A program made the position numbers and the translations under genes. This document shows, piece by piece, positions 21,495 to 44,974 of a stretch of DNA of 64,000 bases (positions are counted from its first letter, which is position 1; each line of letters begins with the position of its first letter). Source of the DNA: Escherichia coli (lineage in GTDB: Bacteria > Pseudomonadota > Gammaproteobacteria > Enterobacterales > Enterobacteriaceae). The notes below the pieces were generated by a model that ran no database searches, was not told the DNA's origin, and saw only the letters and a program-made list of their open reading frames with translations. The stretch lies in NCBI RefSeq assembly GCF_029227855.1, contig NZ_CP074356.1; one strand, written 5' to 3'.

Positions 21495-21775
21495 TTATCG
21501 CTAAATAATACAGCAACCTTTAATAATCTTCTGCTGAATAAAGATTATCTCATATATTAATTTTATGAGGTTTTTTTAGGATTATATCAAGGAGAAGAAA
21601 CAAACTTATTAAGCTAGAATAGCCACGGGTGCTTGAGACTGTTTGTCTCAGGTATTCACCGAAAGGCAGACAGAGAAAAGCCCCACCTGACTATAAATCA
21701 AAGTGAGGCTACCCTATGCCTGAACACCATAAGGTTAGCCTCTTACTCGTTGGAAATCAACACAGGGGGCTGGGA

Positions 21776-21928
21776 ATGCCGCAGAAATATAGATTACTTT
21801 CTTTAATAGTGATTTGTTTCACGCTTTTATTTTTCACCTGGATGATAAGAGATTCACTGTGTGAATTGCATATTAAACAGGGGAGTTATGAGCTGGCGGC
21901 ATTTTTAGCCTGCAATTTAAAAGAGTAA
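21776..21928 (+). CDS. hokA: Hok-family type I toxin (50 aa), locus not interrupted by an IS element
   Basis: MPQKYRLLSLIVICFTLLFFTWMIRDSLCELHIKQ...; the track ORF 21716-21928 adds an in-frame upstream ATG; GC hairpin ggcgggaa..ttcccgcc downstream. Confidence 0.8.
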   Translation: MPQKYRLLSLIVICFTLLFFTWMIRDSLCELHIKQGSYELAAFLACNLKE

Positions 21929-22057: not shown

Positions 22058-22092
22058 AATAAAAAAATCCCCGCCAAATGGCAGGGATCTTA
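22058..22092 (-). terminator. cspA transcription terminator
   Basis: On the minus strand an imperfect GC stem (tccctgcc / ggcgggga) followed by a T run, just 3' of the cspA stop. Confidence 0.55.
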
Positions 22093-22115
22093 GATTCTGT
22101 GCTTTTAAGCAGAGA

Positions 22116-22328
22116 TTACAGGCTGGTTACGTTACCAGCTGCCGGGCCTTTAGCGCCGCTTTCGATGGTGAAGGACACTTTCTGACCTTCGTCCAGAGAT
22201 TTGTAACCATCGTTCTGGATAGCAGAGAAGTGTACGAACACGTCTTTAGAGCCATCGTCAGGAGTGATGAAGCCGAAGCCTTTGTCAGCGTTGAACCATT
22301 TTACGATACCAGTCATTTTACCGGACAT
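22116..22328 (-). CDS. cspA: Major cold shock protein CspA
   Basis: 70-aa [24 protein letters not shown]... with RNP1/RNP2 motifs. Confidence 0.95.
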
Positions 22329-22487
22329 AGTGTATTACCTTTAATAATTAAGTGTGCCTTTCGGCGATATGGCGTGCTTTACAGATTTTGAAGCGTTAAA
22401 GGAATGTGCACTACGAGGGGTATCAACGATAACTCTTGAAGGGACTTGCCTTACTACACTGCTTTAATGGTCTGTACGTCAAACCGT
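22329..22487 (-). promoter_or_regulatory. cspA long 5' UTR (cold box / RNA thermosensor region)
   Basis: About 160 nt of untranslated leader upstream of the cspA start; extent taken from established knowledge of the cspA mRNA, not mapped here. Confidence 0.55.
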
Positions 22488-22608
22488 TGATGTGCATTAA
22501 GCCACGCATTGGCGGGTGATGCAACAATTATTTTTCATATTTATGATTAATCGGTTGGAAAACGGTCCTGTCATCAGGACCGTAAACAGCAATAAAGTGG
22601 ATAAAAGT

Positions 22609-33684: not shown

Positions 33685-34018
<334 letters not shown>

Positions 34019-34110
34019 CGTAGGCCTGATAAGACGCGTCAGCGTCGCATCAGGCAACGGCACCGCACTTATTGTCGGATGCGGCGTGAACGCCTTATTC
34101 GACCTACACG
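34019..34110. repeat. REP/BIME elements upstream of dppA
   Basis: gcctgataagacgcg...cgcatcaggc and gtcggatgcggcgtgaacgccttattcgacctac palindromes. Confidence 0.55.
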
Positions 34111-40387: not shown

Positions 40388-41659
40388 TTACTCAATCAGC
40401 TTCAACAGTGGCGACAAGCATAGCAAAATGCCGTAAAGCAGAATTAGCCAGGCTTTAAATCCGCGAAGTTTTTCCAGTTGTGCGACTTTATAGATCAGGA
40501 AAAACGGAATGAGGCACGACACAATGCCATATAACGGGCTTCCCAACTGAAAGAACACCAGCACCGATACACGAAACGAAACCCAAATCGTCAATGTAAT
40601 GACGATAAAAGCGCAGATCGCCAGAGTCAGCATGCGTGAGTTAATTTTCTTGGTATCAATAATTCGGCTTAACAGATTGAGAATAATGCCTTTAATAGCC
40701 TCGTGGAAACCGAGATAAATGCCAAAGAATGCGGTCAGTACGGCAAAGATATTCAGCACCGTAGAGGTGATATGAATGATATGTCCAGGGATCACCTGCG
40801 CGGCCAGCGCCAGTGCCGAGATATTTTGTTCAAAGGCAGAAACGGCTTCTTCGTGGCTAATTGAGAAGGTAAACGAAAAGGCAAAAAACAGGATCACCGC
40901 GATGAGCGTGATATAACTAATTCGGTGGGTACGCAGCGCGAGCCGGGTTGCCAGTACTTTATCCGCTTCCCGTTTACGATAGGCAATATTCATTGGGTTA
41001 AGTACCTGAATAAATACTGCAGAAAAGAAGCAAAATGGAATGGTAAGCAAGACATCGCGGAAAAAGACGGAGGCTTGCGGGAAGGCGGTTATATTGGCGA
41101 AATTCCAGTGCGGGATCATCGCAAAACCGAACACGACAATAATCCCTACTTTGACCACCACCATTGGCCCGGAAATCTTAAACAGTAATCGTTCACCACC
41201 AGACGCAATCGCCACCAGTACGGCGAAAATAGCGACTTTATAAAGTAGAGATTGTGAAAGATCGGCATCGGTTAAACCGAAGGTTTTCAGGTACGAGGCG
41301 CTGTCGAAAACCACGGAGAGAGAGTAGATAAAAATCCCGTGGATAATCATCAAAAAGTAGATAACCCCGAGGAAAATTCCCCAGTTCTTCCCCAGGTAAT
41401 GACTGATAATATCGGTGTAGTCATTACAGGAATCGCTTTCAGAAAGGGTTTTTAAATAAATGTCCTGCACTACCCAGGTGGCAGGATAAGCAATGATCGC
41501 TGCGGTAATAAATACCCAAATTCCCTTCAAGCCAATTTGTACTGGCATCAGCACGGTTCCGGCACCAATCGCCATGCCTATGCATAATAAAACCCAGCCG
41601 AAGTCGTAGCGTGTAAACGGCAATTTCTGATTGTGTTTCGATAGTGTGTTGTGCTGCAT
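40388..41659 (-). CDS. yhjV: Amino acid permease (HAAAP / serine-tyrosine permease family)
   Basis: 423 aa from [22 protein letters not shown]; 11 TM segments. Confidence 0.85.
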
Positions 41660-42023
41660 AAAGTCCTGTCCAGAAAGAAGTCGGCCTCGCAAAAATGAAT
41701 AAACCCAGTTTCTCTTGCGCAACAGGTGGAGAAGTCGAATACGCAGTATGTAAAAAATGAGGCAACAGATTCACTGGGGAGGTCGCGAGGAGGCGCAATT
41801 CTACAAAATTGCGCATTTCACTACCAGTCTGGAGTCAGCCCGGATATGAACTGCAACTATTGCAAATAAAGAAATTAAGCTGGAAGGCATCGCGCAATGA
41901 GGAAGATTGCCGGGTGCTGACAGTAAAAAGCAATCGTAAAATCAGCGGCAAGCCGAAAGGGTTCCGGTGAGGCGCAATGTTGCGGGGGCTTTATCCCTGG
42001 TGGCATTGGTTGCTGGAGAGAGA

Positions 42024-42086
42024 AAACCCCCGCACGTTGCAGGTATGTACCTGACAACATAACGGGGGCTAATCTTGAACCTAGAC
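42024..42086 (-). ncRNA. Putative Rdl antisense RNA, copy 1 (approximate)
   Basis: Placed by analogy with known LDR loci, where the antisense RNA lies opposite the ldr leader; coordinates approximate, no ends mapped. Confidence 0.3.
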
Positions 42087-42134
42087 CACTCAAGAATAGC
42101 CGCGAAACGTTGTCATTACAACACAGGCGGCTAT

Positions 42135-42242
42135 ATGACGCTCGCAGAGCTGGGCATGGCCTTCTGGCATGATTTAGCGGCTCCGGTCATTGCTGGCATT
42201 CTTGCCAGTATGATCGTGAACTGGCTGAACAAGCGGAAGTAG
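42135..42242 (+). CDS. Ldr-family toxin peptide (35 aa), copy 1
   Basis: MTLAELGMAFWHDLAAPVIAGILASMIVNWLNKRK; single TM helix with basic C-terminus. Confidence 0.8.
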   Translation: MTLAELGMAFWHDLAAPVIAGILASMIVNWLNKRK

Positions 42243-42506
42243 CGTGTCATGTGGGCGTCAGGCTGCCGTAATGGCAATTTGCGCCCGGACCAGGCCGCAG
42301 GAGTGAAACTCTGCGGCCTTTTTCGTAAGAAAAATGCAACGGTTGCAAGCGGATAATATTCTGCGGAATGCGCAGCACAGAGTGAAGATGAGACGGATTC
42401 CGGAACAGAAAAACAGTCGTAGAATCAGCGTCAAGCCGGAAGGATTCCGGTGAGGCGCAATGTTGCGGGGGCTTAATCCCTGGTGGCATTGGTTGCTGGA
42501 GAGAGA

Positions 42507-42569
42507 AAACCCCCGCACGTTGCAGGTATGCACCTGACAACACCACGGGGGCTATTCTTGCATCCAAAC
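42507..42569 (-). ncRNA. Putative Rdl antisense RNA, copy 2 (approximate)
   Basis: Same position within repeat unit 2. Confidence 0.3.
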
Positions 42570-42617
42570 AATACAAGAATAGCCGCGAAACGTTGTCATT
42601 ACAATACAGGCGGCTAT

Positions 42618-42725
42618 ATGACGCTCGCAGAACTGGGCATGGCCTTCTGGCATGATTTAGCGGCTCCGGTCATTGCTGGTATTCTTGCCAGTATGATCGT
42701 GAACTGGCTGAACAAGCGGAAGTAA
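42618..42725 (+). CDS. Ldr-family toxin peptide (35 aa), copy 2
   Basis: Identical peptide; end of track ORF 42483-42725. Confidence 0.8.
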   Translation: MTLAELGMAFWHDLAAPVIAGILASMIVNWLNKRK

Positions 42726-42989
42726 CGTGCCATGCGGGCGTCAGGCTGCCGTAATGGCAATTTGCGCCCGGATCAGGCCGCAGGGGTGAAACTCTGCGGC
42801 CTTTTTCGTAAGAAAAATGCAACGGTTGCAAGCGGATAATATTCTGCGGAATGCGCAGCACAGAGTGAAGACGTGACGGATTCCGGAACAGAAAAACAGT
42901 CGTAGAATCAGCGGCAAGCCGGAAGGGTTCCGGTGAGGCGCAATGTTGCGGGGGCTTTATCCCTGGTGGCATTGGTTGCTGGAGAGAGA

Positions 42990-43052
42990 AAACCCCCGCA
43001 CGTTGCAGGTATGCACCTGACAACATCACGGGGGCCATTCTTGAACCTGAAC
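42990..43052 (-). ncRNA. Putative Rdl antisense RNA, copy 3 (approximate)
   Basis: Same position within repeat unit 3. Confidence 0.3.
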
Positions 43053-43100
43053 AACTCAAGAATAGCCGCGAAACGTTGTCATTACAACACAGGCGGCTAT

Positions 43101-43208
43101 ATGACGCTCGCAGAACTGGGCATGGCCTTCTGGCATGATTTAGCGGCTCCGGTCATTGCTGGCATTCTTGCCAGTATGATCGTGAACTGGCTGAACAAGC
43201 GGAAGTAA
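43101..43208 (+). CDS. Ldr-family toxin peptide (35 aa), copy 3
   Basis: Identical peptide; end of track ORF 42933-43208. Confidence 0.8.
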   Translation: MTLAELGMAFWHDLAAPVIAGILASMIVNWLNKRK

Positions 43209-43294
43209 CGTGTCATGCGGGCGTCAGGCTGCCGTAATGGCAATTTGCGCCCGGACCAGGCCGCAGGGGTGAAACTCTGCGGCCTTTTTCGTGC

Positions 43295-44974
43295 TTACTG
43301 CGGGTAAGGCACCCAGTCGCCGCCGTTCAGGCGAACGTACGGTTTATCCTGGTATTGAATAACTACTGCATTTGAGTTCTCGGAGACCGGTGCTGTTTGT
43401 GGCAACCCACTGGTGAGTTTTTTCCAGTCAACATTGTCTTCGGTGAAAATCTTGCCATCAAGAACGCGAACCACCAGATCGGAGATAGCCAGGAAGCTGC
43501 TCGGTTGGTCAATGACAATCGGTGCCCCCTGATGTGGTGCCTTCATGCCGAAGAATTTCACCCCAACGGGGACGTCTGTGATAGACGGGCTAGGGATATC
43601 ACGTAGGCCAGATACCTGCATTCTGTCGCCCTTCAGCGCGCCGCCGTGTTCCGGCACCACGACCACCATCACTTTACGACCCGATTTCTCCAGTTCAGTA
43701 AAGAAGGCGTCCAGTTCATCAAAGAATTTCTGCGCCCGCGCTTTGTAATCCGCTGTTTTGCTGACCCCCGGATAATGGTTGCCGTCATGCAGTGGAAGCG
43801 TGTTGTAGAACGTGGCACTACGGCTATTTTTATCTTTTTCGGTAACGTCCAGCCAGCGGTTAAGCACGGCGGTATCGTCATAAACCGGCGAACCATCAAA
43901 GCCCAGCAAAATAACCGGCAGATTTGTTTGATCCATCAATTCAGTCTGCATGCCGCCATTTTCGCGAACTTCTTTCAAAAAACCGCCGAACTGGCCGTTA
44001 TGCCCCATCATCAGGTGCTGGGTAAAGCCCAGTTTCGAAAGGTTATCAAACAGATAGCAGTCGTTATTTGCCGGTTGATACAGATTAGTGTGCGAAGTCT
44101 GCCCGCAGCTGGCGCGCAGTAAACGGATCGCCGCCGGGCCACTGTAGGAGGTGGCGGAGTTAAAGTTCTTGAACTCAATATCGAAATGCGACCACAGTGG
44201 ATGCGACATCAACCCGGCGGCTTCTATATCCGACCAGGAAAGCGAACAGATGTTAATCACCAGTAGTTCAAATGGCTGAGCATCAGCGGGCAGCGAAGAC
44301 GGGAAGGTCGATTTACGTTTCGCCTCCGCGTTATAGAAATTATTCAGCCAGGCGTTAAGGTTCGCCGTTGTTGGCGGTGCAGTTTGTGCGGGCATATCAC
44401 CCACTACCGGTGCGCCACCCGTCGCCGCAACGGTTGCCGCTGCGTTACCACCCGTCGTTGTTACAGTGGTCGTCGGTTGTCCGGCTGGCCACAAGGAGAA
44501 ACTTGGTCCCGCCAGGGTAAGTACGTTCAGCCATAGCAGTATGGCAACCACAAAAACGGTAATGCGAATCCATTGTGACAGGAATAACCAGGCCACTAAT
44601 AAAACAAAAATGGCCCCAATCATCTGCCAGTTAATAAAGCGTGTGACAAGGTCGATTAAATAATCGGTACTGAACCCCGCCACCTGCGAACCCTGGCTCA
44701 TTATGCTTTCCGGGCCAGGCAACCAGGTGTCATGCCAGAACAAAGCAAAGCCGATCGGCAGGGCAATCCAGTGGCGCAAGCGATGCAGGCTGTAGCGCGG
44801 AATGGGCATCAGCAGAAACGCGGCAAACACCAAATTGAGGAGCGGATGGAAGTTAAGATATCCCGCCCACAACAGGCCGAACTTAACCAGAAAATAGAAG
44901 TTCCAGCCGGAAAGACCGCGCCAGTATTGCCAGAGGGAAGAAGGCATGGCGGTATTTTGTGTAAATTGAGTCAT
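43295..44974 (-). CDS. bcsG: Cellulose phosphoethanolamine transferase
   Basis: 559-aa ORF; N-terminal TM helices and alkaline-phosphatase-like domain. Confidence 0.92.

What the first reader, a model, noticed from the sequence alone, without database searches (positions are those of the whole stretch)
41946..43290. Three-copy tandem Ldr/Rdl type I toxin-antitoxin array between yhjV and bcsG
Three near-identical 483-bp units each encode the same 35-aa Ldr-type membrane toxin (MTLAELGMAFWHDLAAPVIAGILASMIVNWLNKRK), a leader region that would be opposed by an antisense Rdl RNA, and a strong terminator hairpin. The ATGs are exactly 483 nt apart. As I recall it, K-12 carries a single LDR-D unit at this position and its three-copy array is elsewhere, so this locus appears expanded here. 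The few substitutions between units lie in the leader/antisense region and could give copy-specific RNA pairing. The last unit's terminator abuts the bcsG stop and may also terminate the bcsEFG transcript.
Basis: partly seen in the sequence, partly recalled or inferred. Interest (0 to 1): 0.5.

Follow-up and report, generated by a model that had tools for sequence, protein, structure and literature searches.

The report
Three-copy LdrD/RdlD toxin-antitoxin array
This is an ordinary, already described E. coli feature: three tandem copies of the LdrD small-toxin / RdlD antisense-RNA module between yhjV and bcsG, a state found in about a third of complete E. coli genomes and published for strain BL21(DE3).

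Summary
A 483-bp tandem repeat (41920-43292) carries three identical 35-aa Ldr ORFs with ATGs exactly 483 nt apart. It also carries three minus-strand RdlD antisense genes (Rfam RF01813, 84-91 bits against a gathering score of 50) and three intrinsic terminators. The interpretation as a three-copy Ldr/Rdl type I toxin-antitoxin array is supported.

It is not unusual. A census using the inter-unit junction shows that 3,304 of 5,426 complete E. coli genomes have two or more copies here. Three is the median multi-copy state and five the maximum. Identical arrays are annotated in many closed RefSeq genomes. A 2017 paper states that BL21(DE3) has three ldrD/rdlD pairs between bcsG and yhjV.

The units differ by 12-23 of 358 nt and are positionally orthologous across strains, so this is an old array, not an assembly artefact or a recent expansion. 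K-12's single copy is identical to unit 3 of the B-lineage array and looks like a contraction.

Substitutions are enriched in a patch covering the 5' end of Rdl. Predicted pairing favours cognate partners there, but I found no clear sign of selection for discrimination between copies.

The idea that the last terminator also stops bcsEFG transcription is not supported, because the minus strand has no U-tract.

Verdict: already known, low interest.

The parts
41920..43292 (+). Whole LDR-D-type tandem array (period 483, 2.8 copies by TRF; three core units)
   Evidence: TRF; alignment of the three 483-nt periods, mean column identity 95%
41937..41942 (+). Unit 1 putative ldr -10 hexamer TAAAAT (TAGAAT at 42420-42425 and 42903-42908 in units 2 and 3). 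The transcription start is inferred at about 41945-41950.
   Evidence: Read from the sequence. Inferred only: the consensus promoter scan found nothing at its threshold. The position fits an mRNA of about 370 nt ending at the terminator (length recalled from Kawano 2002).
41949..42324 (+). Unit 1 ldr mRNA (inferred boundaries): 186-nt leader, CDS, 3' UTR and terminator
   Evidence: The homologous unit 2 mRNA folds at -185 kcal/mol, z=-9.5.
41977..42054 (+). Unit 1 conserved 25-codon upstream ORF in the leader (MLRGLYPWWHWLLERENPRTLQVCT); copies at 42460-42537 and 42943-43020
   Evidence: kept at full 25-codon length in 31 of 34 units; also conserved in K-12 LDR-A/B/C. Translation not shown.
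42021..42086 (-). rdl gene, unit 1 (66-nt antisense RNA)
   Evidence: Rfam RF01813 90.7 bits, gathering score 50; fold -31.7 kcal/mol, z=-5.95; terminator-like site on the minus strand
42093..42121 (-). Putative rdl promoter, unit 1 (TTGTAA - 17 nt - TATTCT, 6 nt before the Rdl 5' G). Equivalent sites at 42576-42604 and 43059-43087.
   Evidence: Read from the sequence. Nucleotide diversity is 0.0 in the -41..-22 window, which holds most of the spacer and the start of the -10 hexamer, and the hexamer columns show no change in the 39-sequence alignment. 8 of 12 consensus matches, so below the threshold of the scan. Inferred.
42060..42090 (.). Hypervariable patch of unit 1 (-75 to -45 from the ATG): the first 27 nt of Rdl plus bases just upstream of its start. 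Same patch at 42543-42573 and 43026-43056.
   Evidence: 13 of the 25 positions that vary among the three units lie here. In 34 units the 27-nt Rdl part differs by 4.1 nt per pair of units against 8.0 nt in the remaining 327 nt.
42135..42242 (+). ldr toxin CDS, unit 1 (35 aa, TAG stop)
   Evidence: Pfam PF13940 Ldr_toxin 1-35/35, E=1e-26
42292..42324 (+). ldr intrinsic terminator, unit 1
42325..42419 (+). Inter-unit spacer 1/2 (second spacer at 42808-42902). Part of the junction sequence 42317-42420 used for the copy-number census.
42432..42807 (+). Unit 2 ldr mRNA (inferred boundaries)
42504..42569 (-). rdl gene, unit 2
   Evidence: RF01813 84.5 bits; fold z=-3.8
42618..42725 (+). ldr toxin CDS, unit 2 (35 aa, TAA stop)
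42775..42807 (+). ldr intrinsic terminator, unit 2
42915..43290 (+). Unit 3 ldr mRNA (inferred boundaries)
42987..43052 (-). rdl gene, unit 3
   Evidence: RF01813 83.7 bits; fold z=-4.2
43101..43208 (+). ldr toxin CDS, unit 3 (35 aa, TAA stop)
43258..43290 (+). ldr intrinsic terminator, unit 3; its stem ends 9 nt before the bcsG stop codon
40388..41659 (-). yhjV (left flanking gene)
   Evidence: RefSeq annotation of identical or orthologous loci
43295..44974 (-). bcsG (right flanking gene, convergent with ldr unit 3)

Best explanation
The region holds three tandem, separately transcribed LdrD/RdlD type I toxin-antitoxin modules of the LDR-D type, at the same yhjV-bcsG locus where K-12 has one.

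Each unit makes a highly structured ldr mRNA of about 375 nt: a 186-nt leader, a 35-codon ORF for a small membrane toxin, and its own intrinsic terminator. From the opposite strand each unit makes a 66-nt Rdl RNA that is fully complementary to leader positions -114 to -49. This overlap lies upstream of the ldr ribosome binding site.

By the K-12 model, which is taken from the literature and not shown here, unstable Rdl pairs with the stable ldr mRNA. The duplex is cut by RNase III and toxin translation stays off. The predicted folds add that the ldr Shine-Dalgarno region sits in a conserved local hairpin, so the full-length mRNA is probably poorly translated even without Rdl.

The three units are old paralogues with positional orthologues in other strains. 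Copy number at this locus (1 to 5) changes by unequal crossing-over. A three-copy array is a common, normal allele.
For: - Anatomy.
- Each unit is intact. The three peptides are identical, with only two synonymous changes and a TAG/TAA change in the CDS. All three rdl matches are above the gathering score. The proposed rdl promoter hexamers show no change in the 39-sequence alignment, and diversity is 0.0 in the -41..-22 window between them.
- Same locus as K-12 LDR-D.
- Not an artefact. The best place is at least 99% identical to the 1.8-kb query in 889 records, and all 40 best-ranked complete genomes are 100% identical with Ldr x3 annotated. The units are distinguishable, with 12-23 differences per 358 nt.
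- Positional orthology. Window units 1, 2 and 3 equal units 1, 2 and 3 of four-unit arrays and units 1 and 2 of a two-unit array, with 0-2 differences.
- Census: 3,304 of 5,426 genomes have at least one junction; median 2, maximum 4.
- Literature: three ldrD/rdlD pairs between bcsG and yhjV in BL21(DE3), shown in a transcriptome figure (PMC5435950). LdrD toxicity and RdlD repression (PMC4147584). An ldrD/rdlD dsRNA captured in vivo and an effect of RNase III (PMC7373196).
- Shine-Dalgarno hairpin AUAGCCGC/GCGGCUAU in the consensus fold of 39 distinct units.
Against: - Nothing here shows transcription, toxicity or repression in this strain.
- The ldr promoter and transcription start are inferred, and the consensus promoter scan found none.
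- The consensus mRNA structure rests on conservation, not covariation: only 2 of 102 pairs show compensatory change. The single-sequence MFE fold differs from it.
- Unit 1 has a TAA five codons after the in-frame leader ATG at 42045, whereas units 2 and 3 read through into ldr. If that ORF is the proposed ldrX coupling ORF, unit 1 may be regulated differently or be silent.
- The physiological role of chromosomal Ldr/Rdl loci is unknown. No deletion phenotype has been reported for any Fst/Ldr system (PMC7472228).
Confidence: 0.9

Rival explanations
1. The three-copy count is an assembly artefact: a collapsed or expanded tandem repeat.
For: Tandem repeats of 483 bp can be mis-assembled from short reads. 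One paper suspected such an error for a different LDR array (PMC7232551).
Against: All 40 best-ranked complete genomes carry a 100% identical 1.8-kb region, among them NCTC8623, and 889 records are at least 99% identical. The three units differ at 12-23 of 358 positions and each has its own orthologue at the same array position in independent assemblies. This is not what duplicated or collapsed reads would give.
Confidence: 0.03
2. The array is a recent, lineage-specific expansion of the single K-12-type LDR-D unit.
For: K-12, O157:H7 and about 39% of complete genomes lack any inter-unit junction.
Against: Units are 3-6% diverged from one another, while orthologous units in different strains are 0-2 nt apart. 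Multi-copy arrays occur in a majority of E. coli genomes and in other Escherichia lineages, with two copies in Escherichia sp. E1V33 and in SCPM-O-B-8794. K-12's unit is identical to unit 3 of the three-unit E. coli B array, which points to a deletion in K-12.
Confidence: 0.07
3. One or more units, particularly unit 1, are decaying and no longer functional, so the array is effectively fewer than three modules.
For: In unit 1 the in-frame leader ORF stops after 5 codons (TAA at 42060). In close relatives (strain 8479, O111) the leader ATG is ATA. Unit 1's region upstream of the -10 hexamer comes from the flank and differs from that of units 2 and 3.
Against: Unit 1 has the best rdlD score (90.7 bits), an intact toxin ORF, a terminator and the same rdl promoter hexamers as the other units. 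The leader ATG is also absent from K-12 LDR-A/B/C. LdrA from that array is toxic when expressed according to the literature, so that ORF is probably not essential.
Confidence: 0.15

Closest known systems
Three ldrD/rdlD pairs between bcsG and yhjV in E. coli BL21(DE3) (Kim et al., NAR 2017, PMC5435950)
   Same: Same locus, same copy number, same unit length (483 nt) and same architecture. The B-lineage region is 98.3% identical over 1,801 nt, and its unit 2 is 3 nt from window unit 2.
   Different: B-lineage unit 3 carries the K-12 LdrD peptide (MTFAELG...) and is 11 nt from window unit 3. B-lineage unit 1 is closer to window unit 3 (7 nt) than to window unit 1 (13 nt).
K-12 LDR-D (ldrD/rdlD; Kawano et al. 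2002)
   Same: Same flanks and same module. The peptide differs at one residue (L3F). The core differs from window units 1 and 3 by 11 of 358 nt.
   Different: One copy instead of three. No inter-unit spacer.
K-12 LDR-A/B/C array (kdsA-chaA)
   Same: A tandem three-copy Ldr/Rdl array. The leader is nearly identical, including the 25-codon upstream ORF, the Rdl stem and the 3' UTR elements.
   Different: Different locus and different period (535 nt). About 77% identity overall, with a much more diverged CDS (MTLAQFAMIFWHDLAAPILAGIITAAIVSWWRNRK). It lacks the in-frame leader ATG.
hok/sok (mok) type I toxin-antitoxin system
   Same: A stable, highly folded toxin mRNA with a long leader. A short unstable antisense RNA pairs upstream of the toxin start. 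Regulation is proposed to be analogous (PMC4147584, PMC7472228). The ldr leaders give weak matches to the Rfam 'sok' model.
   Different: The toxin family differs (Ldr_toxin, not Hok). The sok model matches score 28-32 bits against a gathering score of 59, so they fail. A coupling ORF equivalent to mok (ldrX) is only hypothesised.
ibs/sib tandem type I modules with cognate discrimination (Han et al. 2010, PMC2943612)
   Same: Tandem, near-identical toxin/antisense units whose differences concentrate in the antisense-target region.
   Different: Cognate-only repression has been shown for Sib/Ibs. Here it is only predicted from pairing energies, and the sample of arrays does not clearly support it.

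Membership tests
Ldr/Rdl (LDR) type I toxin-antitoxin | 35-aa Ldr peptide: hydrophobic helix, conserved Trp, charged C-terminus (Pfam PF13940) | tested here: met
   Pfam Ldr_toxin 1-35/35, E=1e-26, 93.1 bits. Identical in all three units.
Ldr/Rdl (LDR) type I toxin-antitoxin | Cis-encoded Rdl antisense RNA of about 60-66 nt on the opposite strand, overlapping the ldr 5' UTR but not the RBS or start codon | tested here: met
   RF01813 full-length matches at 84-91 bits, gathering score 50. The overlap runs from -114 to -49 relative to each ATG.
Ldr/Rdl (LDR) type I toxin-antitoxin | Rdl folds as a long stem-loop with a single-stranded 5' tail and a U-rich 3' end | tested here: met
   MFE -30.5 to -32.3 kcal/mol, z -3.8 to -6.0, first 11 nt unpaired. 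Minus-strand terminator-like sites.
Ldr/Rdl (LDR) type I toxin-antitoxin | Long structured ldr mRNA ending at its own intrinsic terminator | tested here: met
   Three + strand terminators. The 376-nt unit 2 RNA folds at -185 kcal/mol, z=-9.5. The 5' end is inferred, not mapped.
Ldr/Rdl (LDR) type I toxin-antitoxin | LDR-D chromosomal context (between yhjV and bcsG) | tested here: met
   Same flanks as K-12 ldrD.
Ldr/Rdl (LDR) type I toxin-antitoxin | Peptide is toxic when overproduced, and Rdl represses its synthesis | not testable with these tools
   Known for K-12 LdrD/RdlD only (PMC4147584). The peptide here differs by one residue (L3 instead of F3).
Ldr/Rdl (LDR) type I toxin-antitoxin | Both strands are transcribed in vivo | not testable with these tools
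   Reported for the three BL21(DE3) pairs (PMC5435950) and for K-12 (PMC7373196). Not for this strain.
hok/sok | Match to the Rfam sok model at or above the gathering score | tested here: not met
   The ldr leaders score 28-32 bits against a gathering score of 59. The peptide matches only Ldr_toxin in Pfam.
Cognate-specific tandem type I modules (as shown for ibs/sib) | Each antisense RNA discriminates its own target from co-resident paralogues | tested here: inconclusive
   Tail duplex about -25 kcal/mol for cognate pairs against -7 to -18 for non-cognate pairs. Full duplexes of non-cognate pairs remain very stable (-105 to -120). Co-resident units elsewhere differ by as little as 1-2 nt in the patch. 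The within-array mean of 4.75 is close to the between-genome mean of 4.13.

The most novel reading that the evidence does not exclude
The 27-31-nt hypervariable patch could be a specificity code. It covers the Rdl 5' tail and upper stem, which in the consensus fold corresponds to the loop of a UCUUG/CAAGA hairpin in the ldr leader. Under this reading each Rdl preferentially silences its own ldr mRNA, so the tandem copies act as independent modules rather than as one dosage-amplified module. Cognate discrimination of this kind has been shown for Sib/Ibs but, as far as I found, never tested for Ldr/Rdl. The null alternative is that the patch is simply the least constrained part of a cis-antisense pair, because any mutation there keeps perfect complementarity.
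Probability: 0.3. Interest if true: 0.3.

Novelty: already known. Interest (0 to 1): 0.08.

Why it matters
It matters little as a discovery. The family, the locus and the three-copy state at this locus are all published and routinely annotated. The useful results are corrective. K-12 is a poor reference for copy number here, since multi-copy arrays are the majority state in E. coli and K-12 probably lost two units. The copy number in such assemblies can be trusted because the units are distinguishable paralogues. The one open biological question this locus could address is whether the variable patch at the Rdl 5' end gives copy-specific repression.

Tried and rejected
- The consensus sigma-70 promoter scan over 41700-43400 found no sites. 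The ldr and rdl promoters given in the report are therefore manual, sub-threshold assignments.
- NCBIfam gave no match for the 35-aa peptide or for the 25-aa upstream ORF. Pfam did match the toxin.
- I first read rows H90-H99, whose matches end at window 43292, as genomes with a different bcsG side. Fetching four of them (H90, H94, H97, H98) showed four-unit arrays split by the tool's place-joining rule. I corrected the copy-number estimate and replaced it with a junction-based census.
- RNAalifold on 39 distinct units gave almost no covariation, 2 of 102 pairs, so no mRNA structure is demonstrated. The long-range 5'-3' pairing in the single-sequence fold was not recovered in the consensus.
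- I tested for selection for discrimination between co-resident copies. The within-array and between-genome distances in the patch were 4.75 and 4.13, so there is no clear signal.
- The genome-contig scan used an exact 20-mer, so it reached only Escherichia. One Bacillus subtilis contig matched the 20-mer without any ldr, and one 503-bp contig looks like contamination. It cannot speak to Salmonella or other genera.
- I could not retrieve Kawano 2012. I did not try to retrieve Gerdes and Wagner 2007. So I could not determine which leader ORF is the published 'ldrX'.
Full report
**Observation**

Tandem Repeats Finder reports one array at 41920-43292 with period 483, 2.8 copies, 95% matches and no indels. 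Three ORFs at 42135-42242, 42618-42725 and 43101-43208 on the + strand encode the identical peptide MTLAELGMAFWHDLAAPVIAGILASMIVNWLNKRK. Their ATGs are exactly 483 nt apart.

Aligning the three 483-nt periods shows that the first ~65 nt of period 1 is only loosely similar to the spacer that precedes units 2 and 3. The near-identical core is therefore about 407 nt per unit.

**Identity of the parts**

- The peptide matches Pfam Ldr_toxin (PF13940) over its full length, E=1e-26.
- On the minus strand, Rfam rdlD (RF01813) matches full length at 42086-42021, 42569-42504 and 43052-42987. The scores are 90.7, 84.5 and 83.7 bits against a gathering score of 50.
- Each Rdl folds into a long stem-loop with an unpaired 5' tail and a U-rich 3' end (-30.5 to -32.3 kcal/mol, z -3.8 to -6.0).
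- Three + strand terminators follow the ldr ORFs, each a 10-11 bp stem with 7-8 GC pairs and a T5 run. Three minus-strand terminator-like sites end the rdl genes.
- The Rdl overlap covers -114 to -49 relative to each ATG. It lies in the leader, not on the ribosome binding site.
- A putative rdl promoter (TTGTAA, 17 nt, TATTCT, 6 nt before the Rdl 5' G) and a -10-like hexamer for ldr (TAAAAT or TAGAAT, about 193-198 nt upstream of each ATG) can be read from the sequence. Both are below the threshold of the consensus scan, which found no promoter, so they are inferences.
- The flanks are yhjV (40388-41659, minus) and bcsG (43295-44974, minus), the context of K-12 ldrD.

**How common it is**

The 1.8-kb region is 100% identical in all 40 best-ranked complete genomes, where PGAP annotates 'type I toxin-antitoxin system toxin Ldr family protein (x3)'. 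In 889 records the best place is at least 99% identical.

For a census I used the inter-unit junction (42317-42420) as the query. A local BLAST showed it to be specific: it has no significant match in the K-12 LDR-A/B/C array or in single-copy loci. The results were as follows.

- 3,304 of 5,426 complete genomes carry at least one junction, meaning two or more copies.
- There are 6,994 junctions in all. The median per positive genome is 2 (three copies) and the maximum is 4 (five copies).
- In an evenly spaced sample of 60 positive genomes, 9 had one junction, 35 had two, 15 had three and 1 had four.

Overall this gives roughly 39% of genomes without a junction (one copy), 9% with two copies, 36% with three, 15% with four and 1% with five. 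An independent spread sample with a 4.4-kb query agrees, after correction for four-unit arrays that the tool reported as truncated matches.

K-12 and O157:H7 are single-copy.

**History of the array**

The three window units differ from one another by 12, 15 and 23 of 358 core positions. Each is 0-2 nt from the unit at the same position in four-unit arrays (isolate 162, strain 8479). The two units of an O111:H8 strain equal units 1 and 2.

The units are therefore old paralogues with positional orthology. Closely related strains differ in copy number by loss or gain of whole units, as expected from unequal crossing-over. This also argues strongly against an assembly artefact.

An E. coli B derivative (B95.deltaA, which I take to be a BL21(DE3) derivative) has three units. 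Its third unit is identical (0 of 358) to K-12's single LDR-D, and its second is 3 nt from window unit 2. Two-copy arrays at yhjV-bcsG also occur in Escherichia sp. E1V33 and in strain SCPM-O-B-8794, and E. whittamii has one copy. The single copy in K-12 is best read as a contraction, not the window as an expansion. This is an inference.

**Where the units differ**

Of the 25 variable core positions among the three units, 10 fall in the 66-nt Rdl overlap (odds ratio 3.3, Fisher p=0.0125). Thirteen fall in a 31-nt patch at -75 to -45, which is the first 27 nt of Rdl plus a few bases just upstream of its start. The CDS is depleted, with 3 changes in 108 positions: two synonymous changes and TAG versus TAA.

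In 34 units from 13 loci the same patch is the diversity peak. It has 15 distinct versions and about 15% pairwise difference, against 2.5% elsewhere. In the RNAalifold consensus of 39 distinct units, most of the patch forms the loop of a conserved UCUUG/CAAGA hairpin in the ldr leader. The Rdl 5' tail is therefore complementary to a loop, a plausible first-contact site.

Predicted duplexes of the Rdl tail (nt 1-16) are about -25 kcal/mol with the cognate leader and -7 to -18 with the other two. It is not established, for three reasons.

- The remaining 39 nt of the three Rdl RNAs differ at one position only.
- Non-cognate full duplexes are still -105 to -120 kcal/mol.
- Co-resident units in other strains can differ by only 1-2 nt in the patch. 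The mean within-array distance (4.75) is close to the mean between unrelated units (4.13).

Neutral drift in the least constrained part of a cis-antisense pair explains the pattern equally well.

**Mechanism**

The shown steps are the parts and their conservation. The rest follows the K-12 model from the literature.

- LdrD overproduction kills cells and condenses the nucleoid, and RdlD prevents the toxicity (PMC4147584).
- An ldrD/rdlD double-stranded RNA is captured in vivo, and RNase III affects both RNAs (PMC7373196).
- Control is thought to resemble hok/sok, possibly through a leader ORF called ldrX (PMC4147584, PMC8167048).

The unit 2 mRNA is predicted to be very stable (-185 kcal/mol, z=-9.5). 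In the consensus fold the Shine-Dalgarno region is paired in a hairpin AUAGCCGC/GCGGCUAU that directly precedes the AUG. Only 2 of 102 consensus pairs show compensatory change, so the structure is supported by conservation, not covariation.

The leader is far better conserved between LDR-D and K-12 LDR-A/B/C than the coding region is (77% overall identity).

**The bcsG sub-claim**

The unit 3 hairpin stem ends at 43285 and the bcsG stop codon is at 43295-43297, so they do abut. On the minus strand the hairpin is preceded by AAAAA and followed by UGGUCCGG, and the scan calls no minus-strand terminator there. The next minus-strand terminator-like site is that of Rdl3 (43009-42995). Termination of bcsEFG at the ldr hairpin is therefore not supported. 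Read-through that is antisense to ldr unit 3 cannot be excluded. K-12 has the same geometry.

**Verdict**

This is a correctly recognised member of a well-known family, in a copy-number state that is common, annotated in RefSeq and published. Novelty: already known. Interest: low. The only untested idea of some value is copy-specific Rdl recognition through the hypervariable patch.

Noticed in passing
window 41977-42054, 42460-42537, 42943-43020 (+): A 25-codon upstream ORF in the ldr leader (MLRGL[Y/N]PWWHWLLERENPRTLQVCT) is kept at full length in 31 of 34 LDR-D units. It is also present in K-12 LDR-A/B/C with the same length and stop. In the copies with an intact G-run, the only nucleotide difference from LDR-D in the first 63 nt is synonymous (GAG/GAA). 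Its stop codon lies inside the Rdl target. Conservation could equally reflect RNA structure. It has no NCBIfam match.
   Followed up: partly
window 42045-42062 (unit 1), compared with 42528 and 43011 (units 2 and 3): An ATG in the apical loop of the Rdl target (-90) is in frame with ldr. It is open in units 2 and 3 and in K-12, giving a potential 65-aa extended Ldr. In unit 1 it stops after 5 codons (MYLTT*, TAA at 42060). In strains 8479 and O111 the ATG is ATA, and LDR-A/B/C lack it altogether. If this is the proposed 'ldrX', it is not conserved.
   Followed up: partly
window 41984-42137, 42467-42620, 42950-43103 (+): The ldr leaders give sub-threshold matches to the Rfam 'sok (CssrC)' model RF01794 (28-32 bits, gathering score 59, E 1e-4 to 2e-3). 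This hints at sequence or structure similarity between the ldr and hok leader regions.
   Followed up: no
window 21627-21778 (+) and 22061-22488 (-): A second type I toxin-antitoxin locus lies in the window: a strong Rfam sok match (124.9 bits) next to the cspA thermoregulator 5' UTR (501 bits). I take it to be the hokA locus, which lies near cspA in K-12 as I recall.
   Followed up: no
window 33685-34104 and 2839-2881: Other Rfam matches at gathering score: a tRNA followed by RtT RNA (33685-33929, +), naRNA4 (34023-34104, -) and the ES036 sRNA (2839-2881, +).
   Followed up: no
L009:2234-2609, L011:5517-5892, L014:7978-8353: Some units carry a 1-nt insertion in the leader G-run (GCGGGGGG). 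In the two units checked (L009 and L011) this shifts the upstream ORF into the ldr frame, giving one continuous 89-codon ORF, and gives a 484-nt spacing.
   Followed up: no
L017 (503-bp contig of a 'Bacillus sp.' assembly, coverage 0.66) and L016 (B. subtilis contig): L017 encodes an LdrD-like peptide (MPFAELGMAFWHDLAAPVIAGILASMIVNWLNKRK) and looks like E. coli contamination of a Bacillus assembly. L016 matched the 20-mer but contains no ldr, so it is probably a chance match.
   Followed up: partly
L013:1-172 (E. coli SC477): In this strain the gene next to yhjV is annotated as a HipA-family type II toxin instead of dppF, so the left-hand neighbourhood of the locus is rearranged.
   Followed up: no
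H89 (E. coli K_EC180, NZ_CP062203.1): The match stops inside bcsG and the listed features include bcsC next to the three-unit array. This suggests a deletion or rearrangement within the bcs cluster in that strain.
   Followed up: no
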